This document shows positions 10,747-58,795 of a stretch of 64,000 nucleotides of DNA, piece after piece. The notes beneath the pieces were generated by a model, which was given only the letters and a program-made list of their open reading frames with translations, made no database searches and was not told where the DNA came from. Source of the DNA: an uncultured bacterium (lineage in GTDB: Bacteria > Hydrothermota > Tepidihabitantia > SM23-42); contig CAYQPW010000005.1 in NCBI GenBank assembly GCA_964419565.1, forward strand, positions 22,297-86,296, written 5' to 3'. Every line of letters begins with the position of its first letter. Within the stretch, counting starts at the first letter, position 1. The position numbers and the translations under genes were made by a program.

Positions 10747-10896
10747 ACCTGCTAAGTCAACCCTGGTTCGAATGACAATGAGCTTGACAGCGCCACTAAA
10801 ACAGGTAGAATATCTTTATGATTCTATTATTTGAACGGCAAGAACCTTCAATCAAGCAAATTATACCAACGAGGCCATGTTTTTCTTATCTGCGTA

Positions 10897-10924
10897 TTGA
10901 CAAATAGTCAATTTCCATTAAAAT
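10897..10924 (+). promoter_or_regulatory. Sigma70-like promoter for the ispA-dxs(-giant OMP) operon: TTGACA-16-TAAAAT
   Basis: 'TTGACAaatagtcaatttccatTAAAAT' ends ~12 nt before the ispA ATG, giving a near-leaderless transcript. Confidence 0.3.
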
Positions 10925-10936
10925 TATGCTGGATTT

Positions 10937-11809
10937 ATGACTGATATGGATGTAGTTAAATACCTGACGGAAAAAAAGGTGCCTGTTGACCGCGCACTTA
11001 AGAAATGCTTCTCTGATATAAACGCCTTTTTTGATATCATGTACTATTCGATCGACGGCGGTAAGAGAATAAGACCTATTCTCGCTATCGCCAGTTATGA
11101 GGCTAATGGTGGCAAAGACCCTGAACAGATTATGCCGGTCGCCTGTGGTCTTGAGCTGATACATACCTACTCATTGATACATGATGATCTACCGGCAATG
11201 GATGATGATGATTTTAGAAGAGGAAAAGCTGCTGCACACAAGAAATTCGGTGAAGCCATGGCGATACTCGCGGGTGATGGCCTGTTCGCTCATGCTTTTG
11301 AGCTTTTTACCCGAGGTAATGGTTTAGTTAAAGAAAAACTCATGGTAATACAAGCAGTAAGCGAGGTAGTCGGTCCTAAGGGCGTTGTTTATGGTCAAAC
11401 CCTTGATATGAGCAAGGAAATATCGCCCGATCCGATATCTTTAAGACGTATTCATATCAATAAAACCGCTAAGTTCATTGCTGTTTCAGTGAAATGCGGT
11501 GCGATCATGGCTCAGGCATCAGCTTCTTTGATAAATGATCTCTATGCAGCTGGCATATACATGGGTATGCTTTTTCAATATACCGACGATATTCTTGATG
11601 TTGTTGGTGAAAAAGAGAAGTTGGGTAAGACCCCTGGTAAAGATATGGCGGCAGGTAAGCTAACCGCACCTGCTGTGTATGGTCTAGATGGCGCCAAGTT
11701 CCGTGCTCGGCGATATGCCCAACTCGCTAAGCATAAGTTTTCGGGACTTGGTGAAAGGTTTGATATCTTTAACATGATCACCGACTTCATCCTGCATCGA
11801 ACATTCTAA
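10937..11809 (+). CDS. ispA: Polyprenyl diphosphate synthase (farnesyl/geranylgeranyl diphosphate synthase)
   Basis: The FARM motif 'LIHDDLPAMDDDDFRRGK' and SARM motif 'QYTDDILD' are both present. Confidence 0.85.
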   Translation: MTDMDVVKYLTEKKVPVDRALKKCFSDINAFFDIMYYSIDGGKRIRPILAIASYEANGGKDPEQIMPVACGLELIHTYSLIHDDLPAMDDDDFRRGKAAAHKKFGEAMAILAGDGLFAHAFELFTRGNGLVKEKLMVIQAVSEVVGPKGVVYGQTLDMSKEISPDPISLRRIHINKTAKFIAVSVKCGAIMAQASASLINDLYAAGIYMGMLFQYTDDILDVVGEKEKLGKTPGKDMAAGKLTAPAVYGLDGAKFRARRYAQLAKHKFSGLGERFDIFNMITDFILHRTF

Positions 11810-11839: not shown

Positions 11840-13699
11840 ATGGCAATTTTAAAAAGTATCAAAGGTCCTAAAGACCTCAAAGATCTAACCCTCGCGCAAC
11901 TACATGTACTCGCTCGGGAGATCAGAGAAGAAATAATAAATAGCTGTGCTCAAACCGGCGGTCATGTCGCGCCTTCACTTGGCGTAGTAGAATTGACCAT
12001 AGCATTATACCGGGCATTTGATGCGGATGTAGATAAGATCATCTGGGATGTGGGGCATCAGACTTATGCTCAGAAACTTATCACCGGTCGTTATCCGAAA
12101 TTCCACACGCTAAGAACATACAAAGGCATAAGTGGTTTTCCTAAACGGAAAGAATCTAAATATGATGTTTTCGATACCGGGCATTCATCAACTTCCTTGT
12201 CTGCTGCTACCGGCTTTGCACTGGCAAGGGATCTCAAAGGTGATAATTTCCAGATCATAAGTGTCATTGGTGACGGATCCTTGGGAGCTGGTATTGCTTT
12301 TGAAGCACTCAATCATTTGGGTCATTTAAAGAAGGATATTATCGTTATATTGAACGATAATGAACGTTCGATCGGCGATACGGTCGGTGCCTTGTCACAA
12401 TACCTGACAAGGGTTATTACAACGCGGACGTACAATCGTTTTCGCGACGACCTGTGGAAATTTCTTGGAAAATTCCCACCCTATACAAGAGACCGGAGCA
12501 GGAACCTTGCCAAGCTCCTACAAGAGGGATTAAAAGGTCTTTATGCACCCGCCGTGATCTTTGAAGAGCTTGGATTCAGATATATCGGACCGCTCAACGG
12601 GCACAAATTGGGAGAAATGATCGACACTTTTGAGCGCGTAAAAGAAATGAAAGGGCCAAGGATTATTCATGTTGTAACAAAGAAAGGCAAGGGCTTTGAA
12701 GCCGCGGAAAAATATCCTGAAGCATTTCACGGCATCGGTCCTTATTGCCCGCAAACCGGTAAAACGGAAAGCAAAGGACAATCATGGACATCAATATTCG
12801 GTGATACCGTGGTAGACCTTGCGAAGAAAAACAAGAAGATCGTTGCGATAACTGCCGGGATGTGTCTGGGTACTGGTTTAAAGAAATTTCGTGAAGAGAT
12901 CCCCGATCGTTTCTTTGATGTCGGTATTACCGAACAACATGCCATCACTATGGCCGCCGCCCTTGCCATTGAAGGATATATACCGATATGTGCGATCTAC
13001 TCGACATTTCTTCAACGAGCTTATGATCAGGTGATCCATGATGTGTGTCTGCAGGATGTACCTGTTATCTTTGCGGTTGACCGTGCTGGTCTGGTTGGTC
13101 AGGATGGTCCAACCCACCATGGTCCATTCGACCTTTCATATTTCAGATGTATACCTAATATGATCATCGGAGCACCAAAAGATGGCAGTGAATTGGTTGC
13201 GATGCTCAGAACCGCAGTGACTCAACGTGAACATCCGTTTGCAATACGTTATCCCCGAGGTGACTGTACGACGGTTGATGAAAATATCCCTCAGACTCTG
13301 CCCATCGGCAAATGGGAAGTTCTTAAAAAAGGCCGGGACATAGCAGTGATCGCGGTCGGCTCGATGGTCAAAGAAGCGCTTGGTGCCCAGGTGCTTTTAA
13401 AGAAAAAGTCGATCGATCCAATGATGATCAACGGGCGCTTTATCAAACCGCTCGACAATGAAATGCTACGGGAATTGCCAAATAGTGTTCATACGATAGT
13501 AACGGTCGAAGAAAATACGCTCAGTGGAGGTTTTGGCAGTGCGATTATGGAATACTATTCAAATACCAAAGCGCCAATAAAAGTTTACTGTATTGGCCTG
13601 CCGGATAATTTCATTGAGCATGGTGCCAGAGATATTCTTTTGGATCTGACCGGGCTCAATGCCAAGGGTATTGCCGATAAAATAGCTTCTTTTAAATGA
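11840..13699 (+). CDS. dxs: 1-deoxy-D-xylulose-5-phosphate synthase
   Basis: The N-terminus 'ILKSIKGPKDLKDL..GGHVAPSLGVVELTIALY..WDVGHQTYAQK' and the TPP-binding 'GDGSLGAG' are canonical DXS. The length is 619 aa. Confidence 0.92.
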   Translation: MAILKSIKGPKDLKDLTLAQLHVLAREIREEIINSCAQTGGHVAPSLGVVELTIALYRAFDADVDKIIWDVGHQTYAQKLITGRYPKFHTLRTYKGISGFPKRKESKYDVFDTGHSSTSLSAATGFALARDLKGDNFQIISVIGDGSLGAGIAFEALNHLGHLKKDIIVILNDNERSIGDTVGALSQYLTRVITTRTYNRFRDDLWKFLGKFPPYTRDRSRNLAKLLQEGLKGLYAPAVIFEELGFRYIGPLNGHKLGEMIDTFERVKEMKGPRIIHVVTKKGKGFEAAEKYPEAFHGIGPYCPQTGKTESKGQSWTSIFGDTVVDLAKKNKKIVAITAGMCLGTGLKKFREEIPDRFFDVGITEQHAITMAAALAIEGYIPICAIYSTFLQRAYDQVIHDVCLQDVPVIFAVDRAGLVGQDGPTHHGPFDLSYFRCIPNMIIGAPKDGSELVAMLRTAVTQREHPFAIRYPRGDCTTVDENIPQTLPIGKWEVLKKGRDIAVIAVGSMVKEALGAQVLLKKKSIDPMMINGRFIKPLDNEMLRELPNSVHTIVTVEENTLSGGFGSAIMEYYSNTKAPIKVYCIGLPDNFIEHGARDILLDLTGLNAKGIADKIASFK

Positions 13700-16600
13700 A
13701 TTTGATTCTTTCATTCATTTTATTTTCACAATTATCAACACCGTACGAAACACAGATCTTTCTCGATGCTGATGGGTCTTTTCTGGTCTATGCACGTTTT
13801 TACCAGGGTGAATTCATCGCTATCGATAGTATCGTAAGCGTTGATAAATACCTCGGTATCGGCCTTAAGGGGCACAATCGTGAAAGGCTGTTAGGTGAGC
13901 TTAAGAAGAGTCTTGTTCAACAGGGCGGTTATGCGAGTCAAGGTCTTTTTAGCACATTTGAGATACCTTTGCCAAAAGGCAGCTTCAGTGATTTTATGGG
14001 AGAAACCGGTAAGCTCGACGTCGGTGGTCATGTTAAGATCACAATCGGCGGCAGTGAGACCTTTATTTCTAACTTGCCTGAACAAAAGTTCTCCTGGCTC
14101 CCTGAGCTTGAAATGAAGCAAGAGATGTCGATAAAACTCGACGGTGAAGTCGGGGACCGGATGCGTGTTTTTATCGACCACAATTCAGAAAGGGTGAATG
14201 AGTCAGAGAATAAGATCACCGTGACATACCGGGGACATGAAGATGAGATCATTCAGGAGATCGAAGGTGGTGATACCCAGTTATCTATTCCTGCTACTAC
14301 ATATACTGGCGACATCCCTTCACACCGCGGTCTTTTTGGGATCAAATCTTCTGCCAAATTAGGGCCTTTAGACATCGTTGCGATCGCATCAAAAGAACGA
14401 ACCCAGACTCAGGAGATCGAGATCGAGGGATCAGCACAGGTCCAGTATGACACAACCTGGGCAAAGTATTTTGAACGCCGCCGGTTCTTTTTTCTAGGTA
14501 CACTTGATTCTATCGTTGAACTCAGAGTCTATCTTGATGATAATGATAACCAGAACGATAATCAGGGTATTACGTTCTTTGCCAATGCTTACCTCGACAT
14601 AAACGATGATAATATCCCGGACGATACAGTCATTCAAACGAATACCCAAAGCGGCTACTACACGCTAATGAGGGAGGGACTGAGTGATTTCTATTTGCGT
14701 GTCCCGCGTTCGAATATTATCGAATTAAACTATCAGCTGCCTGAGAATCAGGTGCTCGCGGTGTGGTATACAAAGATAAATGGCGCAGGACAGTATGACA
14801 CGGTCGGTATGATAACGGATTCTATACATAGTGATACGATGCAGCTTAAATTGATCTGTCCAGATGTCCTCGATACCCTGTCCTATACATGGAATTACGA
14901 GAAAAAGAATTATTACCAGATCGTATCACCGGGTTCTAAACTCGATTCGCTCCGGATATACTATATAACATCCGGTGGCGAACATCAAGATAACCAGGAT
15001 GGTGTATCTTATCTCCAGCTCCTCGGGCTTGACAATAACGGCGATAATCTGGTCGATGAAAACATTACTTTTTTCCAGGGTCGGGGTTTGCTTATTTTCC
15101 CGGACAGCATGCCCTTTGCCTCGAGTGCACTCGTTAATCCTGATCCTGAAATTTATACGGATCCATATATGACTGGACTCGGCGATTACTATTTATATAA
15201 AAAGACGGTTCAGGCAAAAGCTGTTTACACATTACCCGAGAATGTTGAAAAAGTAACCGTGTATATCGATGATATTGAGCAGGATTCGACGAGGGACTAT
15301 CATGTCGACTATGACGGCGGTGTCCTCGAGTTCAGAAAACCGATATTGCCGACGCAAAGGGTCAGGATCAAGGTTGAGTACTCGCCATTCTTTTCAGCTG
15401 CAGAAAAATCTCTTGTCGGAGTGCGCGGCACTTTGCGGCCTTTTGGTGAAGCCATGCTCGGTTCATCTTTCTTTTACCGCACTGAATCGTATCCCATGGA
15501 GCATGTCCGGCTAAAAGAAGAGCCGTTCAACAGGATGGTATGGGAGGCGGATTTATCCTACCCGCAGGAACTTCCGTTTGTTACCAGGGCGGTTGATTGG
15601 CTACCTTTTATTGAAACGGAAACCCCTTCGCGTTCGATCGTCAATGTTGAGGGCGCTTATTCGTTTTCTGACCTCAATGCCAAAGGTGAGGTCTTTCTCG
15701 ACGATCTTGAGTCATCAACCGTGCTCAGCAATGATTTTTCAGTTGCCAAAGTGTCCTGGTCCCTGTGTTCGAAACCGATCGAACAGGATACGGTAAATTA
15801 TGTCCAGAACCGGTTGATCTGGTATAATCTGCGCGACGATGAGGTTCTTCAGGCAGACGATATATATCAAGATCCAATAGATCCGAATGAAGCGGCTGAC
15901 GTTTTAAAGATGGTTTTTCATCCGGATCACGATGCATCATTTGGCGGTTTAACTCAATATATCTACAGTGAAGATTTTGACGATATCGAGAATCTAGAAT
16001 TGATAATCAAAGGCCGTGGTGGTATTATCCATGTTGATTTTGCGCAGGAAATAAGCGAAGATCAGCTCCGGCGTAATAAAAACGGTGAGCTTGTCGGTTA
16101 CCAGATTTTCGATGATGAAGACAGCGACAATAATAATGTATGGAATCAATTGAATGAAGATACTGGTCTTGATAATGTCTATGCGAGTGATAATGCTTAT
16201 GTCCCGGGTGCTGCTGATGACGGCAATGATGATTATGAGATCAATGATTATACTGGCGGCACCAATGGGACTGAAGGGAACAAGCTATGGGATACTGAAG
16301 ATCTGGATAGGGACGGCAATTTAAACACGAAAAACCGCTATTTCAGCTATTCAGTAGACCTTGATGATACAACTTCAGCGCGCTATGTAAATAATGCCGG
16401 GTTGATAAACGGCTGGAAGATGTTTCGTGTTTCGATCAAGGATTCAACCCAAAGAGATACGGTCACGGGGCAGCCTGACTGGCACGATATAAAATACGTC
16501 AGGATTTGGTTCAATGGTTTTAGCGAAACTGAGACCTTAATGATATATAAATTGAGTGCCACAGGCAGTCGTTGGAAGAATAAGGGCATTACTGGTGATT

Positions 16601-19101
16601 ATGCACCAAGAGATGAGGCCTTCAGCCTTAGACCGGTTAATACCAAGACTCATTCATACTACAGATCACCGTATGCTAATGAATATGATGAATTCGGGCA
16701 GGAAAAAACTGAGGGAGGCTTGGAATTCCTGCTGGAAAATATCGGCCATGACCGTACCTGCATTGCGCAGCGCAGAACTGACGAGAACGAAGACTACCGG
16801 GCATATGACACGCTGACCTTTTATATGAATGCGCACAATAGCAATCCTCTCTTGTCTATTCGAATAGGGAGTGACAGCTTGAACTATTATGAATACACAT
16901 GCCAGTATGATAATGGTGACCTGGGGTTGAATAATTATCGGCTTTTCAAAGTCACTATGCAGAACTTCATTGACCTCAAGCGTGATCGAGACCCGGACAT
17001 TGATACAGTTAGTGATTCGACCTACACCGTTGTAGGAAATCCTTCATTGTCACATAACCAGTTTTTTGAAGTCAGGATCACCAACCAGTATCTTACATTG
17101 CTTAACGATACGATCTGGTTCAATGATATCAAGCTTAAAGCACCGAAAACAGAGATCGGCAGGACATTTCGCGGTAATGGTTCGATCACTTTTGCCGACC
17201 TTGCCTCCTTGAATTTTTCGTACGATGAATCGAACGGACGTTTTAAAAGGCTGTCTGAGTCAAAAGATATATCAACGACAAGTGCGGGCAAAGGATACGC
17301 GGTAGGTGGCAATATATCAATGGATAAATTCTTGCCAACGGATTGGTACTTCAGAATTCCAGTCAGTATGAGTTACCGGAACACTATACTTGAGCCTCGA
17401 TTCTCTTACTTTTCTGATGATGTTGAACTCGAAGGTACTGATCGCGAAGAACAAGAGTCAAAGACTATAATGCGTGCATATACCGTGAGTATTTCCAAAT
17501 CGCAATCAAAGAACTGGTTCTTAAGATATACGCTTGACCGGCTTACCTTTGACCACACGCGAAACCAGACTCTGTCACGCGCGGTACTCAGTGCCGATAC
17601 TTCGGATAATATGACTTACCGGGGTTCCTATGCACTCGTTCCCAATTTGAGTTTCAAATTACTCAAGCAGAAATTCTTTCCGCTGCCGAAGAATATAAGC
17701 ATCAGTGCTTTGTATACAGACAACATGGTCAAGGCTTATCATCGCTCGAATCTTGATGATCCTTATGAACCAACTATCGGTGGTGCTCAGCACCGGAAAA
17801 CCTTGACACCGACAATATCAGTTGCATATGCACCTCATTCTATTATCAATGCGGATTATACATTTACCCAGAACCGCGATTCAGTTTTTGCCAGCAAGAG
17901 ATATGGTGAGGAAGTCGGTCGTACACAGAATTTCAATGCATCTATTTCTCCAAATCTCAAGATCGTTACGCCTCGTTTCTCATTCAATTCATCCTATAGC
18001 GAGGATCATCGTTTTGAAATACGGCAGGATCAGGATTTGCGCAATGTGTCGAATACCGGCGCTTATGGTGTTGATGGCGCGATCATGATCGGCACGATAA
18101 TAAGACTTTTTACTAGATTGAGGGATGAAACCAAAGATTCACTTTATGCTTCAGGTTCACCGGGTTGGATCGCCAGACAAGTCGAGAAATTAACCAACTA
18201 CATACAGAATGTGCAATTCAATTATCGCCGTCAGAGTAGTTCTGATTATCTCAATGTCAAGTCAAGACCGGTCATCGATTACCAGTGGGGGCTGGTGGAT
18301 TCAATCCCGCCTGAGGATGTTGCCCCGGGCAGTTTCCCGGGACGGGGTAATACAGATACTTATGGTCTGTCATCTGGTATGACTTATAAGTTTCTCAGTG
18401 CCAATGGCAGGTATAGTGGTACGATCAATCGAACATTTAATTATGGCGGAGGGCAAACTAGAACAGAGAATGTATCATACCCGGATCTGAATGTCCGCAT
18501 TCAGAAACTTGAATCCCTGCCTTTTCTGAAAAAATGGTGTCGTAATTCATCGATATCCGGGAATTTTGGTCAAACATATGAAAAACGTTATGATATAGCT
18601 GCGGATTCGTTGACTGGCGAATTGGTTTCAGACTCCAAAACCCTGAATTTGTCGCCTTTGGCAAGCTGGCAAGCAAACTGGATCAAAGGGATATCTACAA
18701 CTATTGAAGCAAATTACTCAGAGACAAATAGCAATGAATATGCAGGCGGCGCAACGCCTGTTCAGTCAAAAATGATAATGCGCGGCGGATCAGCAAGTTT
18801 TGGCTATACTTTCAGTGCCCCGGGCGGGATAAATTTACCGCTGCTTAAGGGCATAAGATTTTCTTCCAACCTTTCTATAAGTTTGAGTGTAAATTACAGC
18901 CGTACAACTAACTTTTTCACCGATCTTCTCGTACCCGCGACAAATACAAGCACCTTGAGTTCAAGCGTCGGATTGTCATACAACTTCTCTTCATCAGTGA
19001 CCGGCGGCGGGAATTTCGATTATTCCCAAAATGACGATATGAATAGTGATCAGAATACGCGAAGGGTTGGTTTGAACGCCTGGGTGAATATCAACTTTTA
19101 A
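13696..19101 (+). CDS. Giant (1801 aa) secreted outer-membrane beta-barrel-type protein. It is a candidate T9SS translocon (SprA/Sov-like)
   Basis: It has a signal peptide and a composition rich in D/N/S/T/Y. Alternating hydrophobic beta-strand patterns run throughout, and it ends in Phe ('..LNAWVNINF') like an OMP beta-signal. An acidic DxDxDG-like calcium-binding-type segment sits at ~aa 800-880. Its size, and a context of six T9SS cargo genes, suggest SprA. It is translationally coupled to dxs (ATGA). Confidence 0.4.
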   Translation: MNLILSFILFSQLSTPYETQIFLDADGSFLVYARFYQGEFIAIDSIVSVDKYLGIGLKGHNRERLLGELKKSLVQQGGYASQGLFSTFEIPLPKGSFSDFMGETGKLDVGGHVKITIGGSETFISNLPEQKFSWLPELEMKQEMSIKLDGEVGDRMRVFIDHNSERVNESENKITVTYRGHEDEIIQEIEGGDTQLSIPATTYTGDIPSHRGLFGIKSSAKLGPLDIVAIASKERTQTQEIEIEGSAQVQYDTTWAKYFERRRFFFLGTLDSIVELRVYLDDNDNQNDNQGITFFANAYLDINDDNIPDDTVIQTNTQSGYYTLMREGLSDFYLRVPRSNIIELNYQLPENQVLAVWYTKINGAGQYDTVGMITDSIHSDTMQLKLICPDVLDTLSYTWNYEKKNYYQIVSPGSKLDSLRIYYITSGGEHQDNQDGVSYLQLLGLDNNGDNLVDENITFFQGRGLLIFPDSMPFASSALVNPDPEIYTDPYMTGLGDYYLYKKTVQAKAVYTLPENVEKVTVYIDDIEQDSTRDYHVDYDGGVLEFRKPILPTQRVRIKVEYSPFFSAAEKSLVGVRGTLRPFGEAMLGSSFFYRTESYPMEHVRLKEEPFNRMVWEADLSYPQELPFVTRAVDWLPFIETETPSRSIVNVEGAYSFSDLNAKGEVFLDDLESSTVLSNDFSVAKVSWSLCSKPIEQDTVNYVQNRLIWYNLRDDEVLQADDIYQDPIDPNEAADVLKMVFHPDHDASFGGLTQYIYSEDFDDIENLELIIKGRGGIIHVDFAQEISEDQLRRNKNGELVGYQIFDDEDSDNNNVWNQLNEDTGLDNVYASDNAYVPGAADDGNDDYEINDYTGGTNGTEGNKLWDTEDLDRDGNLNTKNRYFSYSVDLDDTTSARYVNNAGLINGWKMFRVSIKDSTQRDTVTGQPDWHDIKYVRIWFNGFSETETLMIYKLSATGSRWKNKGITGDYAPRDEAFSLRPVNTKTHSYYRSPYANEYDEFGQEKTEGGLEFLLENIGHDRTCIAQRRTDENEDYRAYDTLTFYMNAHNSNPLLSIRIGSDSLNYYEYTCQYDNGDLGLNNYRLFKVTMQNFIDLKRDRDPDIDTVSDSTYTVVGNPSLSHNQFFEVRITNQYLTLLNDTIWFNDIKLKAPKTEIGRTFRGNGSITFADLASLNFSYDESNGRFKRLSESKDISTTSAGKGYAVGGNISMDKFLPTDWYFRIPVSMSYRNTILEPRFSYFSDDVELEGTDREEQESKTIMRAYTVSISKSQSKNWFLRYTLDRLTFDHTRNQTLSRAVLSADTSDNMTYRGSYALVPNLSFKLLKQKFFPLPKNISISALYTDNMVKAYHRSNLDDPYEPTIGGAQHRKTLTPTISVAYAPHSIINADYTFTQNRDSVFASKRYGEEVGRTQNFNASISPNLKIVTPRFSFNSSYSEDHRFEIRQDQDLRNVSNTGAYGVDGAIMIGTIIRLFTRLRDETKDSLYASGSPGWIARQVEKLTNYIQNVQFNYRRQSSSDYLNVKSRPVIDYQWGLVDSIPPEDVAPGSFPGRGNTDTYGLSSGMTYKFLSANGRYSGTINRTFNYGGGQTRTENVSYPDLNVRIQKLESLPFLKKWCRNSSISGNFGQTYEKRYDIAADSLTGELVSDSKTLNLSPLASWQANWIKGISTTIEANYSETNSNEYAGGATPVQSKMIMRGGSASFGYTFSAPGGINLPLLKGIRFSSNLSISLSVNYSRTTNFFTDLLVPATNTSTLSSSVGLSYNFSSSVTGGGNFDYSQNDDMNSDQNTRRVGLNAWVNINF

Positions 19102-19119: not shown

Positions 19120-19944
19120 ATGTTGAATAGATCAAAACACAGATTGCTCACCGCCCTCTTGGGTGGACTGCTGTTTTGGTTTGGTGCTCCTAAACCACTA
19201 TCTGCTTTTTCACCGTATGATCACTTTTTGGATTTTTGCCGTATTGGCGAGCGTGTACCTGGAACTTCGGGACATAAAAAGGCTCGGGATTATATCGTTA
19301 CGAAAATAGATAATCCGGTCGTGGATTCATTTTATACGCGCGGCTCCTGGTTTTACAATATATATAAAAAGTTTCCTGGCAACAAAACAAGGATCGGCAT
19401 TGCCGCACACTGGGATTCAGATATCGGATGCCCGGGTGCGAACGATGGCGGATCAGGCGTCGCCGTATTATTGAGTTTGATCGATACGCTGACACTCAAT
19501 CCTCCTGAAATCGGAGTCGATATAATTTTCTTCGATGGTGAAGATGTCGATAGGGCAGCTTTACTCGGGTCAAACTACTTTGCTTCAAAATGCATTGATA
19601 ATTATTCTTTCATACTTATTCTCGATATGATCGGCGATAAAGATCTACAGATTTTCCAAGAAGGTCATTCGGCAACATTTTTTCCTGAATTCGTGGATTC
19701 CATATGGCGTATCGGTATGCAACTGGCTCCTGCGGTTTTCGTGCCGGCAATAAAGTATTATATCATCGACGACCATTATTCACTCATCAAATATGGGATC
19801 AGGGCCATTGATATCATTGACTTCGATTATCCATATTGGGATTCTGAAGATGATACTGAGGATAAATGCAGTAAGGAGAGTCTGGATATCATGTATAGAT
19901 TTGTTTTAAGAATCGTATATCCTGAATTCCTTCCACGTGAATAA
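19120..19944 (+). CDS. Secreted M28-family metallopeptidase-fold protein (aminopeptidase or animal-type glutaminyl cyclase-like)
   Basis: It has a signal peptide. Metal-ligand motifs are spaced as in M28: 'AAHWDSD', 'NDGGSGVA', 'FFDGEDV', 'LDMIGD', 'DDHYS'. Confidence 0.5.
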   Translation: MLNRSKHRLLTALLGGLLFWFGAPKPLSAFSPYDHFLDFCRIGERVPGTSGHKKARDYIVTKIDNPVVDSFYTRGSWFYNIYKKFPGNKTRIGIAAHWDSDIGCPGANDGGSGVAVLLSLIDTLTLNPPEIGVDIIFFDGEDVDRAALLGSNYFASKCIDNYSFILILDMIGDKDLQIFQEGHSATFFPEFVDSIWRIGMQLAPAVFVPAIKYYIIDDHYSLIKYGIRAIDIIDFDYPYWDSEDDTEDKCSKESLDIMYRFVLRIVYPEFLPRE

Positions 19945-20281: not shown

Positions 20282-22144
20282 ATGTTATTATTTATTTTCA
20301 TGCAGTTATTCAATATTGATCAGGTTACCCTTGATCATGCAATGGGTATTATGAGGCCTCTTTACAATGAGAAGATTGAGAATTCAGCATCCGTCTACTC
20401 TGGTGCTATTCCGATGTGGTGCTCTATGGACAGGACAAGATCCATGGATATGGATTTCCACCGTACAGATATCATCATCGGTGATACACCTGCCGAAACC
20501 CTGTCGATCAGTGGCTATTTCTATAATGAGGGCGATATAATCATCATCAATGATGGTGTACTCATCGTGCACAATGCTGATTTCAATCTTGCTGGTAACG
20601 TCATCATGGTTAATCGGGCTAAAGCAGTTATCGATTCAAGTATGTTGAATTTCATCCAGGCATATATCTATCATCGTATTATCTATGTCACTGATACTGC
20701 AGACCTATCGGTCAGTAATTCGACAACGAACTTTAGCGGTTATCCGTTCAGTGTCAGCGTGGCTGGTGCTGGTATGCTGACATTCAATGAGGTTGTCAAT
20801 GAAGATTGGATAACCGCTGGGGTAGCGCATAATGCTTCGGTTTATCTTGAAAATGTCGGTATTACCGGTGAATGGTTGTTTGCCGATGATTGCTACGCGA
20901 AATTCAAACATGTTGACGAGCTTCTCACCTGGTATTTTTGTGAAGATAATTCTGTCGTTGATATATCTTTTCCGGATGGAGATACAGTCTATGGGTTTTG
21001 TTTTGATTCAACGCTCAGCTATATAAGCGGTATAGGCTATCACGCCGAGATCGACAGCTCAACCGATTGTATGTGGGCGACAATACCTTTGAGAGGATGC
21101 GATGTGACTGTTCAGGATTCTGACCTGAGGGTTACTGGTCTTATGTTTGAGGGTGCAGATAGTTTTACGATTTACGGTCTGGTCAATGGTCTTTTTTATA
21201 ATGATTATACACTGCCCGTACAAGACAGGAATTACCATTTGATAAATACGTCAGTGCAGACATGGAATCTATATCCTGATGATACTTCATATGTCGATCT
21301 CTCGAATTCTATTTTCGGTGAACTGTGCGGATTTGGTAATAGCTATACTATTATTCAAAACGCTTTTTGTGATGGCACGGGCGGTCATATCGAGGCAACT
21401 TCACAAGCATTCGTTATAGTTTTTTTATCGAGTATTTTCGCTGATGTAATAACCAAGGAGCACGGCGTGTGTCTGCTTGGATACTGTTCTATGCCCTGGG
21501 GAAATATATGGGTCACGGGTTCTTCGATAATGGTTCTTATAAATACGCAGTTCCCCCAAGAACCGATACCATCTGATACAGCGATCGTTTTCGTTGCTGG
21601 AATCGCCGCTCCGAGTAATGCATATATTGACGATACGGTGGGCGTCATGGGCTCGGCTTGGATAGATAAGGGTCCTTATAATCCGCTGGACTTTGATTTT
21701 TACGAGCTTTACTTTCATGAACTCGGTGAATCAACATGGATTTTGATAGAAGACACACATTTTGTAGAGGTGCGTGATGATACGCTGGGTAATTGGAATA
21801 CCGCGGGCTTTACGCCTGGTACCTATGAGCTCAGACTCGTCCTTAAGAGCACTGCCGGCGACAGCATCGAGGCATTAAAACAGGTCAATCTAAGACCGAT
21901 GGGTGTCCTCGATGTCTTTTCTAGTGAACTCGACCTTGGTTTGATAACCGTGAAACAAGTTGCACCGCGTATTTTTTATATCACGAGTTTTGACTCAAAC
22001 CCTCAGATCTGCATTTATGATATTGTTGGGCGTGCGGTTCACGAAATAAAAACTTGCGAGTTATATTGGACTGCTCCAGCGAGCGGTATATATTTTGTGC
22101 GCGATAGTAAAACCGCTTATACTCAGAAAATTATCGCCTATTGA
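20282..22144 (+). CDS. T9SS-sorted secreted protein, probably a beta-helix fold, function unknown
   Basis: The C-terminus 'ICIYDIVGRAVHEIK..SGIYFVRDSKTAYTQKIIAY' looks like a T9SS C-terminal sorting domain. An SD-like GGGGGAG lies upstream of the ATG. Confidence 0.6.
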   Translation: MLLFIFMQLFNIDQVTLDHAMGIMRPLYNEKIENSASVYSGAIPMWCSMDRTRSMDMDFHRTDIIIGDTPAETLSISGYFYNEGDIIIINDGVLIVHNADFNLAGNVIMVNRAKAVIDSSMLNFIQAYIYHRIIYVTDTADLSVSNSTTNFSGYPFSVSVAGAGMLTFNEVVNEDWITAGVAHNASVYLENVGITGEWLFADDCYAKFKHVDELLTWYFCEDNSVVDISFPDGDTVYGFCFDSTLSYISGIGYHAEIDSSTDCMWATIPLRGCDVTVQDSDLRVTGLMFEGADSFTIYGLVNGLFYNDYTLPVQDRNYHLINTSVQTWNLYPDDTSYVDLSNSIFGELCGFGNSYTIIQNAFCDGTGGHIEATSQAFVIVFLSSIFADVITKEHGVCLLGYCSMPWGNIWVTGSSIMVLINTQFPQEPIPSDTAIVFVAGIAAPSNAYIDDTVGVMGSAWIDKGPYNPLDFDFYELYFHELGESTWILIEDTHFVEVRDDTLGNWNTAGFTPGTYELRLVLKSTAGDSIEALKQVNLRPMGVLDVFSSELDLGLITVKQVAPRIFYITSFDSNPQICIYDIVGRAVHEIKTCELYWTAPASGIYFVRDSKTAYTQKIIAY

Positions 22145-32367: not shown

Positions 32368-33486
32368 CTATTTCAATACCACGACTTTTTCAACTCTATG
32401 GTCTTTTGAATCGGATTTCAAAAAGTAGACGCCTTGTACCAGATCACCCAGATACAGTTTATTCGTATTTTGTGTTAGTCTAAATACTCTTATCATACGT
32501 CCGGTCGCATCATAGAGAGTGAGTTGTAGTGGTGGTTTCGGTATATTCACAAAAGCATGGTTTTTGATAATCGTCGATTGAAGAGAGAATCCGTTAACTA
32601 TGCCAGATAGATGTTCTTGTATGCCTATGATCTGTTCGATATGTACTGAACCTGGTGAGCCTGGCTGCGGGTTTCCATAGGCACCTGAACCTGCTGCGCC
32701 GGCCTGAACCAGTGTTGATATGCTTAGAGTATCTAAATGAGCCGTATAAAATACCTTGATACGACCGCCGCCCGCGCCGCCGCCGCCGCCAAATGATGCA
32801 TCGCCGCCATTCCCACCATTAGCCGTGATCCCGGTATGGTGAAGGGTGAGCGTATCGGCCCACACCATTATACCGCCGCCTGCGCCGCCGCCGCCTGCCT
32901 CCACTGAACCGTCATACCCCCGTTGTCCATCAGATACTATCGACGAAGAATCTATTAATATGTGTTGAGCCTTTAAATAGATCTGTGCACCGCCATTACC
33001 GCCGGCACCGTCGAGTGCACTCAGCCGGCCGCAGCCTCCACCAGACCCCAAGTCAATGATCGTATCTGCAGGGTCGCCGTAACCTACACCGCCTGAGCCG
33101 CCATAGATGTCTCCGCCCAGACCGCCATTACCTCCATATGCGCCGCCGCCGCCTGCACCGCCACTTACCCCGCCAGCACCGCCGCCACCGGGTCCATATC
33201 CCTGAGGGTGGCTGTTTAAATAGGCTCCCCGATAACCAAATTCCGAGCCGATCACCGAGGATAACTCTTCAATAATAATTACCGGTGCATTAAGATATAG
33301 TTTGCCAAACGAGTCTGCTGCTGCGCTCCATTGTCTGATCTTTAGTTTTCCGGCCCCAGATATATGGATTTTGATATTGTACTGGTGATTCCCGCAGATG
33401 ACCAGGCTGTCATTCTGTACAATAAGACTATCAGCATCCTCATAAATATAGCCGATGAGTATTGTAAATATCATTAAACCAACCAT
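32368..33486 (-). CDS. Glycine-rich T9SS-sorted secreted protein
   Basis: It contains long GGxGG runs 'GGGGAGGVSGGAGGGGAYGGNGGLGGDIYGGSGGVGYG..GGGGAGGG'. The C-terminus is 'QGVYFLKSDSKDHRVEKVVVLK'. Confidence 0.6.
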   Translation of the reverse strand: MVGLMIFTILIGYIYEDADSLIVQNDSLVICGNHQYNIKIHISGAGKLKIRQWSAAADSFGKLYLNAPVIIIEELSSVIGSEFGYRGAYLNSHPQGYGPGGGGAGGVSGGAGGGGAYGGNGGLGGDIYGGSGGVGYGDPADTIIDLGSGGGCGRLSALDGAGGNGGAQIYLKAQHILIDSSSIVSDGQRGYDGSVEAGGGGAGGGIMVWADTLTLHHTGITANGGNGGDASFGGGGGAGGGRIKVFYTAHLDTLSISTLVQAGAAGSGAYGNPQPGSPGSVHIEQIIGIQEHLSGIVNGFSLQSTIIKNHAFVNIPKPPLQLTLYDATGRMIRVFRLTQNTNKLYLGDLVQGVYFLKSDSKDHRVEKVVVLK

Positions 33487-48886: not shown

Positions 48887-50584
48887 ATGAAAACATGTAG
48901 AGTATTAATCGTATATTCAATAATGATTGCAGCATCTTCAGCACAGTCGCCGGGTGATATAATCGGCTACACGTGGTATGAGTTCCAGGCAAATGGTTCG
49001 TATGGGCAGCGGATTGATGTCGATGATTTACGACAAGCACATATTGTCTGGACCAAGATGGATGCTGCTGCTACAACCCGTTATGTCGCATGGAACCTTC
49101 GGTATTCAGATGGTTCTTATTATGGTGAAACTCAGGCTTCTCCTTCCTGGAGCGGTTATGTCCAGATGGATATTACACGCGACCTGGATCCATACATGCA
49201 AAGAACAGTGATCGTTTACAACTATAATCCGGGTACTGATTATTATTCATGGATTGATATTGATGCAGGTAATGGTTGGGGATCATGGCCCAATACACCT
49301 GGAACACCTGGTATGCCTGGCCATATTTGGCCATATATAGCAGTCGCGAACAATAATAATTTTGTCTTAGCGACTGGTGATAAGGGTGGGAATATGCACC
49401 ATATATATGTTAGTATATACGAAGGGGTGACATGGCTATATATTGCTGGTTTTGATTCTTGTGCAACGTTATCGCAGTTTGTGCGGGCATCAGAAAAACG
49501 TGATACAAACAAAGCAGCTTTTGTCCATACTCAGTTCATCACCGATACTATTGCTGGCGGTCAACTAGACAATGATGTTTATCATAGGATCTCTGATGAT
49601 GGTGGTATTACCTGGGGACCGCATACGAATATTACTGATTATCAGCCTTCTGATTCGGTCCGCGCTTACAATAACGTCAATGCGGTATTTGATGATAATG
49701 ACTATCTCCATATTGTCTGGGCTGGGAGAAAAGTAGACAGTGCTAATTATTATCAGGCTTCGAAGATATTTCATTGGGACGAGTTCAATGATACGATAAC
49801 TGTAGTAAATAGCCCGAGTATTTATTATAATGAACCCGGGGGCTGGTGGATTGAAGGCTCTGCTGGCAACTTTAGCGCCTCGTACATGCCAGCTGATCAA
49901 CCACAGGTTGTATTCGACACGACAACGAGCTTTCTCTATTGTCTGTGGCATGGTAATGATGATACGACTGATGTTTCAGCGGCTGGTTTCTTCAATGGTG
50001 AATTATATGGCGCTTATTCGACTGATTACGGTATTACCTGGTCTGATTATGTTAATCTAACGAATACACGTTCACCTGGCGCTGGTTCTGGTTATTGTTA
50101 TGATGAGGATTATATGACTGCTTGTCCTAAAGTAGTGACAGATTCAATATTTGTTACTTATATTGAAGACAAGGATGCTGGTGCCTATGTTCATAACGAA
50201 GGTGTGAAAACTGAAAATCCAGTACGCTGCTGGGTATTCTGGACCGGGTTGATCAGGACCGGGCTAGAGGAAGAACATGCTTTAACACCCGAATTCCAAG
50301 AGCCAAGTTTGAATATAAATCCAAATCCTTTTGTAAAATCGGTCATGATCGATTTTAGCATAGGGCAAAGTGCTAAGGGCATGGGGCATGATGCAGAGGG
50401 CATAGAGCTAAGAATTTATGATGCGACCGGGAGGGTGGTGAAATCAATTACTCAGTTACATAATTACCCAGTTACATGGTCTGGTGACGACGAGACTGGC
50501 AACAAACTTCCAGCCGGTGTCTACTTTATCGAACTCATTAGTGGAGATAATATAATTTCAAAAAAGGTGATCAAGCTAAAATAA
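48887..50584 (+). CDS. T9SS-sorted BNR-repeat (sialidase/glycoside-hydrolase-like) secreted protein
   Basis: BNR motifs 'SDDGGITWGP' and 'STDYGITWSD' are present. There is a signal peptide with the 'ASSA|Q' site, and the C-terminus is 'GVYFIELISGDNIISKKVIKLK'. Confidence 0.65.
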   Translation: MKTCRVLIVYSIMIAASSAQSPGDIIGYTWYEFQANGSYGQRIDVDDLRQAHIVWTKMDAAATTRYVAWNLRYSDGSYYGETQASPSWSGYVQMDITRDLDPYMQRTVIVYNYNPGTDYYSWIDIDAGNGWGSWPNTPGTPGMPGHIWPYIAVANNNNFVLATGDKGGNMHHIYVSIYEGVTWLYIAGFDSCATLSQFVRASEKRDTNKAAFVHTQFITDTIAGGQLDNDVYHRISDDGGITWGPHTNITDYQPSDSVRAYNNVNAVFDDNDYLHIVWAGRKVDSANYYQASKIFHWDEFNDTITVVNSPSIYYNEPGGWWIEGSAGNFSASYMPADQPQVVFDTTTSFLYCLWHGNDDTTDVSAAGFFNGELYGAYSTDYGITWSDYVNLTNTRSPGAGSGYCYDEDYMTACPKVVTDSIFVTYIEDKDAGAYVHNEGVKTENPVRCWVFWTGLIRTGLEEEHALTPEFQEPSLNINPNPFVKSVMIDFSIGQSAKGMGHDAEGIELRIYDATGRVVKSITQLHNYPVTWSGDDETGNKLPAGVYFIELISGDNIISKKVIKLK

Positions 50585-57364: not shown

Positions 57365-58795
57365 ATGGATATTTTCATAGATGACGGACAAAATGCAAGA
57401 CGATGCGGTTATGCAGTGGTTGTTATTCTATTATCATTTATAGCAGTTTTACCTTCAAGTGCACAAATAATATCAGGAGATGACAATAAGGCTCTATCTC
57501 AATTATTTTATGACCCTGATAGTCTGCCCGTATACGGCTGCAATATTATTAATTCATTTCCGCATGACAGCAATGCCTTTACTCAAGGTTTGATCTATGA
57601 GAATAACGCGCTTTACGAAGGCACAGGACTTTATGCTCAATCTACTTTACGCAAAGTTGAATTAACAACCGGTGCAATATTGAAAATACACTATCTTGAT
57701 AATAGTTATTTCGGGGAAGGCATAACGATGTGGCATGATACGATAATACAGATAACCTGGCGCGAGCACACTGGTTATGTATATATTGAACAGGCTACAT
57801 TTCAGGTGATCGACAGTTTCGGTTATAGCACTGAAGGTTGGGGATTGACCCATGACGACACGTGTCTTATTATGAGTGATGGGACTTCCAGGATTTACTA
57901 TCTTGACCCTCAAAATTATGTTGAGGTCGGTCATATTGACGTTGAAGCTGAGGGGATCCCGGTCGTTTATTTAAACGAATTAGAGTATATTCAGGGGAAT
58001 ATCTATGCAAATGTCTGGTACTGTGATTCAATAGCTATTATCGATCCTCAGACTGGTCATGTAACCGCTTGGCTAGACTTATCAGCATTGAGCTCAGGAC
58101 AGCCAAATGTACTGAACGGTATTGCCTATGATGGTGATGATGTACGTCTGTTCGTGACCGGTAAGCTGTGGCCGACGCTTTTTGAGATCGAAGTCGACCC
58201 CTTGAATTATCCGCCAGAGATAATCGCATTTTCTCCGCCATCACCGTGTTATATAAATATCGATAGTGTTCTTGTGCTGACGGTTATGGTACAGGATCCT
58301 GATCCCCAGGATTCCCTGTTTTATACCTGGAGCGTTAATGGAGTTATTGATACAATAGCTCATGATACGAGTTATTGTTACTCAAGTTCATCGGCAAGGA
58401 CCGATACCGTGATGTTCAGAGTCGATGACGGTATGTTTTGCGATTCAATAGTATGGGTCGTTATCGTTTCAGACCCCGGGGTCGTTGCTGAGAAATCTGA
58501 TCATATGACCAGTTCAGGAGTATTTTTATCATGTTATCCTAATCCCTTTTCAAAATCGATCGTGATCGACTTTAGCACAGGGCTGAGCACAGAAACCACA
58601 GAGCTGAAGATCTATGATGCAACCGGTAGAGTCGTTAGAGATTTTTCACTGTCCAGGGCTTATTCCCTAGTGCCTACTGTAATTCAGTGGGATGGTGCTG
58701 GCCAATTTGGTCTTCCAGTTCCAGCCGGTATTTATTTTGTTGTCCTTAAAGCAGAAAAACTCCGGGTCATAGAAAAAGTAGTCTTTTTATACTAA
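57365..58795 (+). CDS. Glutamine cyclotransferase (plant/bacterial beta-propeller type) fused to a T9SS C-terminal sorting domain
   Basis: 'FTQGLIYENNALYEGTGLYAQSTLRKVELTTGAIL' is the glutamine cyclotransferase signature, and later blades follow. The C-terminus is 'GIYFVVLKAEKLRVIEKVVFLY'. The signal peptide ends 'PSSA|QIIS'. Confidence 0.75.
   Translation: MDIFIDDGQNARRCGYAVVVILLSFIAVLPSSAQIISGDDNKALSQLFYDPDSLPVYGCNIINSFPHDSNAFTQGLIYENNALYEGTGLYAQSTLRKVELTTGAILKIHYLDNSYFGEGITMWHDTIIQITWREHTGYVYIEQATFQVIDSFGYSTEGWGLTHDDTCLIMSDGTSRIYYLDPQNYVEVGHIDVEAEGIPVVYLNELEYIQGNIYANVWYCDSIAIIDPQTGHVTAWLDLSALSSGQPNVLNGIAYDGDDVRLFVTGKLWPTLFEIEVDPLNYPPEIIAFSPPSPCYINIDSVLVLTVMVQDPDPQDSLFYTWSVNGVIDTIAHDTSYCYSSSSARTDTVMFRVDDGMFCDSIVWVVIVSDPGVVAEKSDHMTSSGVFLSCYPNPFSKSIVIDFSTGLSTETTELKIYDATGRVVRDFSLSRAYSLVPTVIQWDGAGQFGLPVPAGIYFVVLKAEKLRVIEKVVFLY

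What the first reader, a model, noticed from the sequence alone, without database searches (positions are those of the whole stretch)
13696..19101. 1801-aa outer-membrane beta-barrel-type giant, translationally coupled to dxs, as a possible T9SS translocon
The giant ORF overlaps the dxs stop (ATGA). It has a signal peptide, ends in Phe, and has OMP-like composition. This window carries six CTD cargo genes, and SprA/Sov is the only T9SS protein in this size class. An Asp-rich DxDxDG-like segment (~16.1-16.4 kb) suggests Ca-binding loops. Co-transcription of an isoprenoid-precursor operon (ispA-dxs) with a secretion translocon would be unusual.
Basis: inference. Interest (0 to 1): 0.5.

Follow-up and report, generated by a model that had tools for sequence, protein, structure and literature searches.

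The report
Compact SprA secretion pore in WOR-3
The 1801-residue gene is a slimmed-down homologue of SprA/Sov, the giant outer-membrane pore of the type IX protein secretion system, found here in an uncultured WOR-3 (Stahlbacteria) bacterium, where it sits in a gene cluster conserved across that phylum directly behind the isoprenoid gene dxs.

Summary
ORF 13696-19101 (+) encodes 1801 aa. Its ATG overlaps the dxs stop (ATGA), and it ends in Phe.

Evidence that it is SprA:
- It scores 323 bits on the curated SprA/Sov model TIGR04189 (cut-off 200).
- A profile of its family matches Flavobacterium johnsoniae SprA (PDB 6H3I) at E=5.5e-136, colinear from end to end.
- AlphaFold models of residues 1-1200 and 602-1801 both hit only SprA chains strongly (Foldseek E about 1e-56 to 1e-59; next hits are 1e-4 to 1e-5).

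It is 600 aa shorter than classic SprA. Classic proteins carry many extra insertions of 15-95 aa, and no segment of 15 aa or more is lost. A rough strand count (34-38) fits a 36-strand barrel.

Five genes in the window carry T9SS sorting domains above threshold, and a sixth is below threshold. No other core T9SS gene lies on the 72.5-kb source contig, so whether the system is complete is untested.

Two features are unusual:
- ispA-dxs-sprA synteny is found in 55 of 80 related genomes, and 42 of those junctions keep a 4-nt overlap.
- The gene after sprA resembles a Bacteroidota-type glutaminyl cyclase, and SprA has a conserved Gln after an odd 11-residue leader.

Verdict: a new member of a known kind, of moderate interest.

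The parts
10784..10924 (+). Two sigma-70-like promoter matches (10784-10811 and 10897-10924, 11 of 12 positions each) in the gap upstream of ispA. This is the candidate start of the operon.
   Evidence: These are consensus matches only. Promoter types of the FCB group are not covered by the scan.
10937..11809 (+). ispA-like farnesyl diphosphate synthase, 290 aa
   Evidence: PF00348 192 bits. NF045485 277.8 bits against a cut-off of 275.
11840..13699 (+). dxs, 1-deoxy-D-xylulose-5-phosphate synthase, 619 aa
   Evidence: TIGR00204 815 bits against a cut-off of 466.
13696..13699 (+). ATGA overlap: the dxs stop codon and the sprA start codon share these four bases.
   Evidence: A 4-nt overlap (ATGA; GTGA in one) is kept in 42 of 55 dxs-sprA junctions among related genomes.
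13696..19101 (+). Compact SprA/Sov homologue, 1801 aa, the predicted outer-membrane translocon of the T9SS
13696..13731 (+). Short uncharged N-terminal leader (residues 1-11) followed by the conserved Gln12. This is a possible signal peptidase I site of the form x-x-[S/A/T]|Q.
   Evidence: 75 of 77 close homologues have Gln at positions 9-16, and none has Lys or Arg in the first 10 residues. Cleavage is inferred.
14005..14460 (+). N-terminal block of long beta-strands (residues about 104-255). It is the part most similar in sequence to F. johnsoniae SprA residues 169-295.
16081..16335 (+). Conserved acidic segment (residues 796-880) containing the DxDxDG loop DLDRDG at nt 16300-16317
   Evidence: The model confidence is low here (pLDDT 45-56). 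Metal binding was not tested.
16336..17085 (+). Beta-sandwich region (residues about 881-1130). This is where I place the carbohydrate-binding-module-like Foldseek matches of about 200 residues. It probably forms part of the extracellular cap.
   Evidence: Secondary structure. The mapping of those hits to these residues is inferred.
17101..19098 (+). C-terminal barrel part (residues 1136-1801): about 26 consecutive long antiparallel strands, ending in Phe
   Evidence: mean pLDDT 83.5. (SprA chains, TM-score 0.61-0.65 normalised to the query).
19120..19944 (+). M28-fold protein, 274 aa, most similar to the type II glutaminyl cyclases of Bacteroidota. In this clade the His zinc ligand is replaced by Asp.
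   Evidence: PF04389 97.6 bits. Best PDB matches are 6qro, 3tc8, 3gux, 4fuu and 6qql. Hallmark residues are taken from PMC7948796.
19937..20257 (+). comEA-like helix-hairpin-helix protein, 106 aa, overlapping the previous gene by 8 nt
   Evidence: TIGR00426 67.7 bits against a cut-off of 53.1.
20282..22144 (+). 620-aa protein with a sorting-domain-like C-terminus that scores below threshold. It is the last gene of the tightly packed cluster.
   Evidence: TIGR04183 15.2 bits against a cut-off of 23. The C-terminus reads GIYFVRDSKTAYTQKIIAY.
527..3124 (-). 865-aa protein with a T9SS type A sorting domain (cargo)
   Evidence: TIGR04183 34.0 bits.
3131..5323 (-). Gingipain-like C25 peptidase with a T9SS sorting domain, 730 aa. 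It does not qualify as PorU under the curated model.
   Evidence: PF01364 129.6 bits and PF18962 33.1 bits. The PorU model NF033707 gives 25.5 bits against a cut-off of 420.
32368..33486 (-). 372-aa protein with a T9SS sorting domain (cargo)
   Evidence: TIGR04183 28.1 bits.
48887..50584 (+). 565-aa protein with a T9SS sorting domain (cargo). Its signal peptide ends ...ASSA|Q.
   Evidence: TIGR04183 34.4 bits. N-terminus.
57365..58795 (+). Type I (beta-propeller) glutaminyl cyclase fused to a T9SS sorting domain, 476 aa
   Evidence: PF05096 294 bits and PF18962 33.9 bits.

Best explanation
ORF 13696-19101 encodes the SprA/Sov homologue of an uncultured WOR-3 ('Candidatus Stahlbacteria') bacterium. 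[quoted passage not shown]

This is a stripped-down version, 1801 aa against about 2400. It keeps every segment of 15 residues or more of the family core and lacks the many loop insertions of the Bacteroidota proteins.

Inferred mechanism, by homology with F. johnsoniae:
- Cargo is first exported by Sec, then enters the barrel from the periplasm with its CTD leading.
- The cargo is handed to a carrier protein at a lateral opening.
- It is then released to the cell surface.

The gene is the third of a tightly packed, co-directional cluster: ispA, dxs, sprA, a glutaminyl-cyclase-like gene, comEA and a CTD-like protein. Its start codon overlaps the dxs stop, so it is most likely co-transcribed with dxs. 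Ribosomes finishing dxs may re-initiate on sprA.

What is shown: homology, fold, gene order and its conservation, and the presence of CTD cargo.
What is inferred: secretion activity, the partner proteins, transcription, and translational coupling.
For: Family membership:
- TIGR04189 scores 323.1 bits against a cut-off of 200. PF14349 scores 71.9 bits against 27.
- The single sequence matches PDB 6h3i_A (SprA) at E=1.6e-30 in four colinear stretches.
- The 30-sequence family profile matches it at E=5.5e-136 (458 bits). Query 35-1560 aligns to SprA 60-2009, and a weak third stretch (independent E 1.1) aligns 1595-1780 to 2175-2380.

Fold:
- The model of residues 1-1200 (pLDDT 77) hits 8gl8_A at E=2.4e-59. 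The next non-SprA hit is 1.6e-4.
- The model of residues 602-1801 (pLDDT 83.5) hits 8gl6_A at E=5.2e-56 with TM-score 0.63. The next hit is 1.4e-5.

Compactness: in the profile alignments to seven longer relatives (2059-2429 aa), none lacks a stretch of 15 aa or more of the WOR-3 profile. All carry extra insertions of 15-95 aa.

Cargo: five CTD proteins score above the cut-off and one below, within 64 kb.

Operon:
- Gene spacings are 30, -4, 18, -8 and 24 nt.
- The strongest promoter-like matches lie upstream of ispA.
- No terminator-like site falls in any gap between the genes.
- ispA-dxs-sprA order is found in 55 of 80 related genome loci. A 4-nt overlap is kept in 42 of them, including every junction where SprA is at least 42% identical.
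Against: - No other core T9SS gene (gldK/L/M/N, porV, porU, sprE/porW, sprT/porT, porP) was found in the window or on the 72.5-kb source contig. ORFs under 150 aa and about eleven longer ORFs (at 28440, 29223, 29994, 34582, 37315, 50628, 51906, 52607, 53180, 54645 and 55800) were not scanned against any family library.
- The one TPR candidate for SprE shows only generic TPR similarity.
- The C25 peptidase does not reach the PorU cut-off.
- The N-terminal leader is much shorter than a normal Sec signal peptide and has no basic residue.
- The exact strand number, the lateral opening and the cap could not be checked. Only half-length models could be made, and their coordinates are not readable.
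- Neither transcription nor coupling was measured.
Confidence: 0.8

Rival explanations
1. The protein is a true SprA relative but does not act as a canonical T9SS translocon. It could be a giant barrel kept for another transport or envelope role, or it could work without the Bacteroidota-type motor, ring and carrier proteins.
For: No partner gene was seen in 72.5 kb. The protein is 25% shorter than characterised SprA proteins. Its conserved neighbours are dxs, a cyclase-like gene and comEA, not T9SS genes.
Against: The density of type A CTD proteins is high: five above the cut-off in 64 kb. The protein is colinear with SprA from end to end, and both halves share its fold. In Bacteroidota, T9SS genes are likewise scattered around the genome (established knowledge). 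Absence from one contig therefore says little.
Confidence: 0.13
2. The dxs-sprA overlap has no functional meaning. It is a frozen piece of gene order in small, tightly packed genomes, and sprA expression does not depend on dxs translation.
For: Overlaps of 4 and 8 nt and short gaps are common throughout this cluster. No known biochemical link connects DXP synthesis to SprA. In more distant WOR-3 lineages the junction becomes a gap of 3-21 nt or a different overlap. In other phyla dxs is not next to sprA at all.
Against: The order ispA-dxs-sprA survives down to 27-33% SprA identity. A 4-nt overlap is kept in 42 of 55 junctions, including all where SprA is at least 42% identical. No Shine-Dalgarno-like purine run is visible by eye in the 35 nt before the ATG. 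Re-initiation from dxs is therefore a plausible way to start translation.
Confidence: 0.55
3. The ORF is an unrelated giant adhesin or generic outer-membrane protein, not SprA.
For: Its length is outside the usual SprA range, and public records name its relatives 'hypothetical protein'.
Against: It passes the curated model cut-off. Its family profile matches SprA at E=5.5e-136. Only SprA chains give strong structural matches.
Confidence: 0.02

Closest known systems
Flavobacterium johnsoniae SprA (PDB 6H3I, 6H3J, 8GL6, 8GL8) and Porphyromonas gingivalis Sov: the T9SS outer-membrane translocon, family TIGR04189 / PF14349
   Same: - The two are colinear in sequence from N- to C-terminus.
- Both halves have the same fold.
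- The acidic segment with its EF-hand-like loop is conserved.
- The C-terminus is a long run of barrel strands ending in an aromatic residue.
- CTD-bearing cargo genes are present in the same genome.
   Different: - It is 1801 aa against 2403 aa. The difference is spread over many loop insertions that exist only in the longer proteins.
- Pairwise identity is only 15-18% in the structural alignments.
- The N-terminal leader is uncharged and about 11 residues long.
- The host belongs to phylum WOR-3, not Bacteroidota.
- It sits in an operon with ispA-dxs and a cyclase-like gene.
- Partner proteins were not identified.
SprA-like proteins of other non-Bacteroidota FCB phyla: Cloacimonadota, Zixibacteria, Gemmatimonadota, Latescibacteria, Ignavibacteria and Rhodothermales
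   Same: They belong to the same family and form a graded series of lengths, from about 1700-1950 aa up to 2100-2700 aa. T9SS genes have already been reported as possibly present in several of these FCB phyla (PMC11285876).
   Different: The ispA-dxs link is restricted to WOR-3-type genomes. WOR-3 is not named in the T9SS literature searched. Two WOR-3 genome papers do not mention secretion, T9SS or gliding.
Bacteroidota type II glutaminyl cyclases (PgQC 6QQL, TfQC 6QRO, BtQC 4FUU), compared with the gene directly downstream of sprA
   Same: These are its best PDB matches, at E from 3e-24 to 1e-15. It keeps the Asp-Gly and Glu-Asp hallmarks and the Trp that separate these cyclases from two-zinc aminopeptidases.
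   Different: - It is shorter (274 aa).
- It has no lipobox cysteine in its leader.
- The His zinc ligand is Asp in this clade.
- Its activity is untested.

Membership tests
SprA/Sov T9SS translocon (TIGR04189, PF14349) | Score above the curated cut-off of the equivalog model TIGR04189 | tested here: met
   323.1 bits against a cut-off of 200, E=3.3e-96, in 4 stretches.
SprA/Sov T9SS translocon (TIGR04189, PF14349) | Pfam SprA_N domain above the gathering score | tested here: met
   71.9 bits against 27. The same domain is precomputed for nearly all homologues.
SprA/Sov T9SS translocon (TIGR04189, PF14349) | End-to-end colinearity with the structurally characterised SprA | tested here: met
   The family profile matches 6h3i_A at E=5.5e-136. 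Stretches 35-297, 327-1560 and 1595-1780 align to 60-335, 431-2009 and 2175-2380. The third stretch is weak (independent E 1.1).
SprA/Sov T9SS translocon (TIGR04189, PF14349) | Giant transmembrane beta-barrel fold shared with SprA | tested here: met
   Foldseek gives E=2.4e-59 for the N-terminal half and 5.2e-56 for the C-terminal half, against SprA chains only. TM-scores normalised to the query are 0.44-0.65.
SprA/Sov T9SS translocon (TIGR04189, PF14349) | A barrel of 36 strands with an extracellular cap and a lateral opening | tested here: inconclusive
   Counting strands from the secondary structure of the two overlapping half-models gives roughly 34-38 barrel-length strands. No full-length model was possible because of the 1200-aa cap. 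Model coordinates cannot be read, so the cap and the opening were not checked.
SprA/Sov T9SS translocon (TIGR04189, PF14349) | Typical length of about 2300-2500 aa in Bacteroidota. This is typical of the family, not strictly defining. | tested here: not met
   1801 aa. A conserved class of about 1800 aa covers at least 80 clusters. The shortening is due to missing loop insertions.
Type IX secretion system (whole system) | Cargo proteins with type A C-terminal sorting domains in the same genome | tested here: met
   Five proteins score above the TIGR04183 cut-off and one scores below it.
Type IX secretion system (whole system) | Motor and ring (GldL/M/K/N or PorL/M/K/N), carrier PorV, sortase PorU, and SprE/PorW and SprT/PorT in the genome | not testable with these tools
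   None was found in the window or on the 72.5-kb source contig. About eleven of the window's ORFs of 150 aa or more were not scanned.
Type IX secretion system (whole system) | Demonstrated CTD-dependent secretion | not testable with these tools
   This needs an experiment.
Translationally coupled gene pair | The stop codon of the upstream gene overlaps the start codon of the downstream gene, and the overlap is conserved | tested here: met
   ATGA at 13696-13699. A 4-nt overlap is kept in 42 of 55 junctions.
Translationally coupled gene pair | Translation of the downstream gene depends on translation of the upstream gene | not testable with these tools
   This needs reporter or ribosome-profiling experiments.
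DxDxDG-type calcium-binding loop | Presence and conservation of the sequence motif | tested here: met
   DLDRDG at residues 869-874. The family consensus is DIDRNG. F. johnsoniae has DINRDN at the aligned position.
DxDxDG-type calcium-binding loop | Bound metal ion | not tested
   The model confidence is low in this segment. The metal content of the solved SprA structures was not looked up. The 2018 structure paper is not held.

The most novel reading that the evidence does not exclude
A minimal SprA core of about 1800 aa is the form used by WOR-3 and several other non-Bacteroidota FCB phyla. In WOR-3 it is hard-wired into one transcription and translation unit with dxs. Across at least three phyla it sits next to a Bacteroidota-type glutaminyl cyclase.

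Taken together with the conserved Gln after SprA's own tiny leader, this would mean two things. First, N-terminal pyroglutamate formation (the 'Q-rule') extends beyond Bacteroidota. Second, it would be genetically tied to the T9SS translocon itself, a link that has so far been seen only as a phylogenetic coincidence.
Probability: 0.25. Interest if true: 0.55.

Novelty: new member of a known kind. Interest (0 to 1): 0.4.

Why it matters
T9SS is usually described as a Bacteroidota system. Its translocon has been solved from only one species, and at about 2400 aa it is hard to handle.

- A conserved version of about 1800 aa shows which parts of SprA can be dispensed with. It keeps every core segment but lacks the loop insertions, so it would be an attractive smaller target for structural and mechanistic work.
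- It extends T9SS-type secretion to WOR-3, a phylum whose published genome analyses do not mention it. That bears on how these mostly uncultured organisms put proteases and other enzymes on their surface.
- The conserved dxs-sprA overlap and the sprA-cyclase gene pair are concrete and cheap to test. They may point to links between envelope biogenesis, N-terminal pyroglutamate formation and secretion.

Tried and rejected
- Other T9SS genes in the window. NCBIfam scans of 36 window proteins, 16 of them also run against Pfam, found none. About eleven ORFs of 150 aa or more, such as 28440 and 29994, were not scanned.
- The 747-aa TPR protein next to lptE (39350-41593) as SprE/PorW. It scores 17.7 bits against a cut-off of 250, and its PDB matches are generic TPR proteins, not the SprE chain of 8GL8. 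Rejected.
- The C25 peptidase with a CTD (3131-5323) as PorU. It scores 25.5 bits against a cut-off of 420. Its layout is that of a gingipain (propeptide, C25 domain, CTD) in 730 aa. It is not filed as PorU.
- Extending the view beyond the window. The last ORF is not on record. The first ORF showed that the source contig is 72.5 kb, with only lpxB, groEL and groES beyond the window start.
- A full-length structure prediction was not possible because of the 1200-aa cap. Alignments of 72 sequences failed in the tool, so 30 sequences were used instead.
- The 2018 SprA structure paper (PMC6927815) is not held. Strand positions and metal sites of the solved structure could therefore not be taken from it.
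- Literature searches for WOR-3 together with T9SS terms found nothing.
- An adhesin or unrelated outer-membrane protein is rejected.
Full report
**Observation**

The ORF is real. It runs from 13696 to 19101 on the + strand and encodes 1801 aa.
- Its ATG (13696-13698) shares bases with the dxs stop TGA (13697-13699).
- An in-frame TAA at 13693-13695 means the start cannot lie further upstream.
- The protein ends in ...WVNINF, and the final Phe is nearly invariant in the family.
- Residues 796-880 (nt 16081-16335) are 26% Asp+Glu, against 13.7% overall. They hold one exact DxDxDG match, DLDRDG at 869-874.

Upstream lie an FPP synthase (ispA-like, 10937-11809) and a bona fide dxs (TIGR00204, 815 bits).

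Five other genes in the window carry a T9SS type A sorting domain above the TIGR04183 cut-off. A sixth (20282-22144) scores 15.2 bits against a cut-off of 23, but has the same C-terminal motif by eye.

The weak point is the 'signal peptide'. The N-terminus MNLILSFILFS|QLSTPYE is hydrophobic, but it is only about 11 residues long and has no basic residue. I could not run a signal-peptide predictor.

**What it is**

- The curated equivalog model for the T9SS translocon (TIGR04189) scores 323.1 bits against a cut-off of 200.
- Pfam SprA_N scores 71.9 bits against 27.
- The single sequence finds F. johnsoniae SprA in the PDB at E=1.6e-30, in four colinear stretches.
- A profile of 30 family members finds it at E=5.5e-136 (458 bits). 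The alignment runs from residue 35 to about 1780 of the query and from 60 to 2380 of the 2403-aa SprA. The last stretch (1595-1780) is weak on its own (independent E 1.1).

The structure tool is capped at 1200 aa, so I modelled residues 1-1200 and 602-1801 separately, each with a 30-sequence alignment.
- The N-terminal model has mean pLDDT 77.2 and the C-terminal model 83.5.
- Against the PDB, the four SprA chains are the only strong matches for both models.
- N-terminal half: E=2.4e-59 to 5.4e-39, with the next hit at 1.6e-4.
- C-terminal half: E=5.2e-56 to 1.7e-43 with TM-scores 0.61-0.65, and the next hit at 1.4e-5. The following hits are other large outer-membrane barrels such as SlpA, SusC and TonB-dependent transporters.

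The C-terminal 660 residues are predicted as about 26 consecutive long antiparallel strands. Adding the long strands at about 104-255 and 570-659 gives roughly 34-38 barrel-length strands. This is compatible with the 36-strand SprA barrel, but it is not a proper count.

**Why it is short**

The protein search found a large, coherent class of about 1800-aa proteins (38-90% identical). Public records name them 'hypothetical protein' or 'SprA N-terminal domain-containing protein', mostly from candidate division WOR-3. The class grades through proteins of 1850-2100 aa (for example Cloacimonadota) into classic proteins of 2100-2700 aa named 'cell surface protein SprA'.

I aligned the WOR-3 profile to seven longer relatives (2059-2429 aa). 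No profile segment of 15 aa or more is missing within the aligned stretches of any of them. All of them carry extra insertions of 15-95 aa at recurring positions, after profile positions 277, 318, 747, 832, 1328, 1402, 1482, 1637 and 1740.

The window protein is therefore a minimal core version of SprA, not a truncated one.

**Organism**

The closest genome loci are a MAG labelled only 'bacterium' (90% identical) and 'Candidatus Stahlbacteria' / candidate division WOR-3 MAGs (76-82%). The source contig is a 72.5-kb Logan assembly contig.

**Context and conservation**

The cluster ispA, dxs, sprA, M28-fold gene, comEA and a CTD-like protein is co-directional, with spacings of 30, -4, 18, -8 and 24 nt. 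The two best promoter-like matches lie upstream of ispA. No terminator-like site falls in any gap between the genes.

Look-ups of relatives show the same order, with the same 4-nt overlap, in genomes whose SprA is 59%, 57%, 52% and 42% identical. The order is lost in two relatives at 30% and 25% identity.

A scan of one genome per species returned 80 loci.
- 55 of them have dxs directly upstream of sprA. These include WOR-3 lineages with only 27-33% SprA identity.
- 42 of these junctions keep a 4-nt stop/start overlap (ATGA; GTGA in one).
- That includes every junction where SprA is at least 42% identical.

It is old, and it is a phylum-level trait rather than an oddity of one genome. What it means is open. 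I rate a neutral, frozen gene order as slightly more likely than a functional link between isoprenoid supply and secretion.

**Mechanism**

By homology with the F. johnsoniae structures (PMC10994853), the inferred steps are:
- Sec-exported cargo enters the capped barrel from the periplasm.
- Its CTD binds inside the cavity, to the loops of a carrier protein docked at a lateral opening.
- Energy input pulls the carrier and cargo out onto the surface.

This study shows family membership, fold and the presence of cargo. The partner proteins and the activity are inferred. No other core T9SS gene is in the window or on the contig. About eleven of the window's longer ORFs, and all ORFs under 150 aa, were not scanned. 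The TPR protein at 39350 is not recognisably SprE. The C25 peptidase with a CTD at 3131 looks like a gingipain-type cargo rather than PorU.

**Comparison with what is known**

T9SS components are already reported as possibly present in several FCB phyla outside Bacteroidota (PMC11285876). This is therefore a new member of a known kind.

I found no paper in the held library that links WOR-3 with T9SS. Two recent WOR-3 genome and isolation papers do not mention secretion, T9SS or gliding.

**Side finding**

The 'M28 peptidase' directly after sprA (19120-19944) is most similar to the type II glutaminyl cyclases of Bacteroidota: 6qro at E=3.1e-24, then 3tc8, 3gux, 4fuu and 6qql. According to PMC7948796, these cyclases differ from two-zinc aminopeptidases in three hallmarks.
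- The window protein keeps Asp-Gly (ANDGGSG), Glu-Asp (FFDGED) and the Trp.
- The His zinc ligand is Asp (PYWDS) in this clade.
- That His is retained (WHT) in other WOR-3 lineages, and in the Gemmatimonadota and Latescibacteria loci where the same gene also follows sprA.

SprA itself has a Gln at positions 9-16 in 75 of 77 close homologues, placed where a signal peptidase I site would fall. Two CTD proteins in the window have ...SSA|Q. A second cyclase, of type I and fused to a CTD, lies at 57365-58795.

The 'Q-rule' (pyroglutamate N-termini) has been described as a Bacteroidetes trait that coincides phylogenetically with T9SS, without a demonstrated link (PMC5837995). A conserved sprA-cyclase gene pair in other FCB phyla is a new hint in that direction, but it is untested.

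**Verdict**

The finding is correct and can now be explained. It is a compact SprA/Sov homologue, most likely the T9SS translocon of a WOR-3 bacterium.
- Confidence that it belongs to the SprA family is about 0.97.
- Confidence in the whole statement, including function, is about 0.8.
- Interest is moderate (0.4). The identification itself follows from standard models. The minimal architecture, the conserved dxs overlap and the cyclase neighbour are worth a specialist's attention.

Noticed in passing
window 19120-19944 (+); also L004, L005, L062-L064, L074, L080, L082, L084-L086: The gene directly after sprA is annotated only as an M28 peptidase, but it resembles a Bacteroidota-type (type II) glutaminyl cyclase. 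It follows sprA in WOR-3, Gemmatimonadota and Latescibacteria. In the window's clade the His zinc ligand ('YWHT') is replaced by Asp ('PYWDS/T').
   Followed up: partly
window 13696-13731 (SprA residues 1-12): The leader is very short, uncharged and conserved, and is followed by a near-invariant Gln (75 of 77 homologues; none has Lys or Arg in the first 10 residues). This suggests a signal peptidase I site that exposes Gln, as in the Bacteroidetes 'Q-rule'. CTD proteins at 48887 and 57365 also read ...SSA|Q, and the protein at 20282 has a similar short leader (MLLFIFMQ).
   Followed up: partly
window 57365-58795 (+): A type I (beta-propeller) glutaminyl cyclase (PF05096, 294 bits) is fused to a T9SS sorting domain, so this cyclase is predicted to be secreted. 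The 64-kb window therefore holds two cyclase-like genes of different folds.
   Followed up: no
window 3131-5323 (-) and 527-3124 (-): A gingipain-like C25 peptidase with a propeptide and CTD sits next to an 865-aa CTD protein. The pair lies between lpxB and an epimerase gene, whereas the relative L001 has those two genes adjacent. The peptidase does not reach the PorU cut-off.
   Followed up: partly
window 19937-20257 (+); many loci: A comEA-like gene follows sprA (or sprA plus the cyclase-like gene) in most WOR-3 loci, and also in Zixibacteria, Hydrothermota and Gemmatimonadota loci. This adjacency is wider than the dxs or cyclase links.
   Followed up: no
window 22691-24199 (+) and 24103-25560 (+): The 502-aa protein ends in a long Cys/His-rich repeat (HSACHSACHSAC...). 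It is followed by a radical SAM/SPASM maturase-like gene. This may be a peptide-modification pair, and relative L001 has the same gene pair.
   Followed up: no
window 39350-42078 (+): A 747-aa TPR protein overlaps the start of an LptE-family gene. Its similarity to PorW/SprE is only 17.7 bits (cut-off 250), and its PDB matches are generic TPR proteins.
   Followed up: yes
SprA residues about 881-1130 (window 16336-17085): Both structure models give secondary Foldseek matches of about 200 residues to carbohydrate-binding modules (CBM11, agarase modules), with TM-scores of about 0.6 normalised to the target. This suggests a jelly-roll domain inside SprA. Its position within the model was inferred, not read from the alignment.
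   Followed up: no
L002 / L003 (relative with 57% identical SprA): A cyclophilin-type peptidyl-prolyl isomerase gene lies four genes upstream of ispA. The F. johnsoniae translocon contains a peptidyl-prolyl isomerase subunit. This may be coincidence.
   Followed up: no
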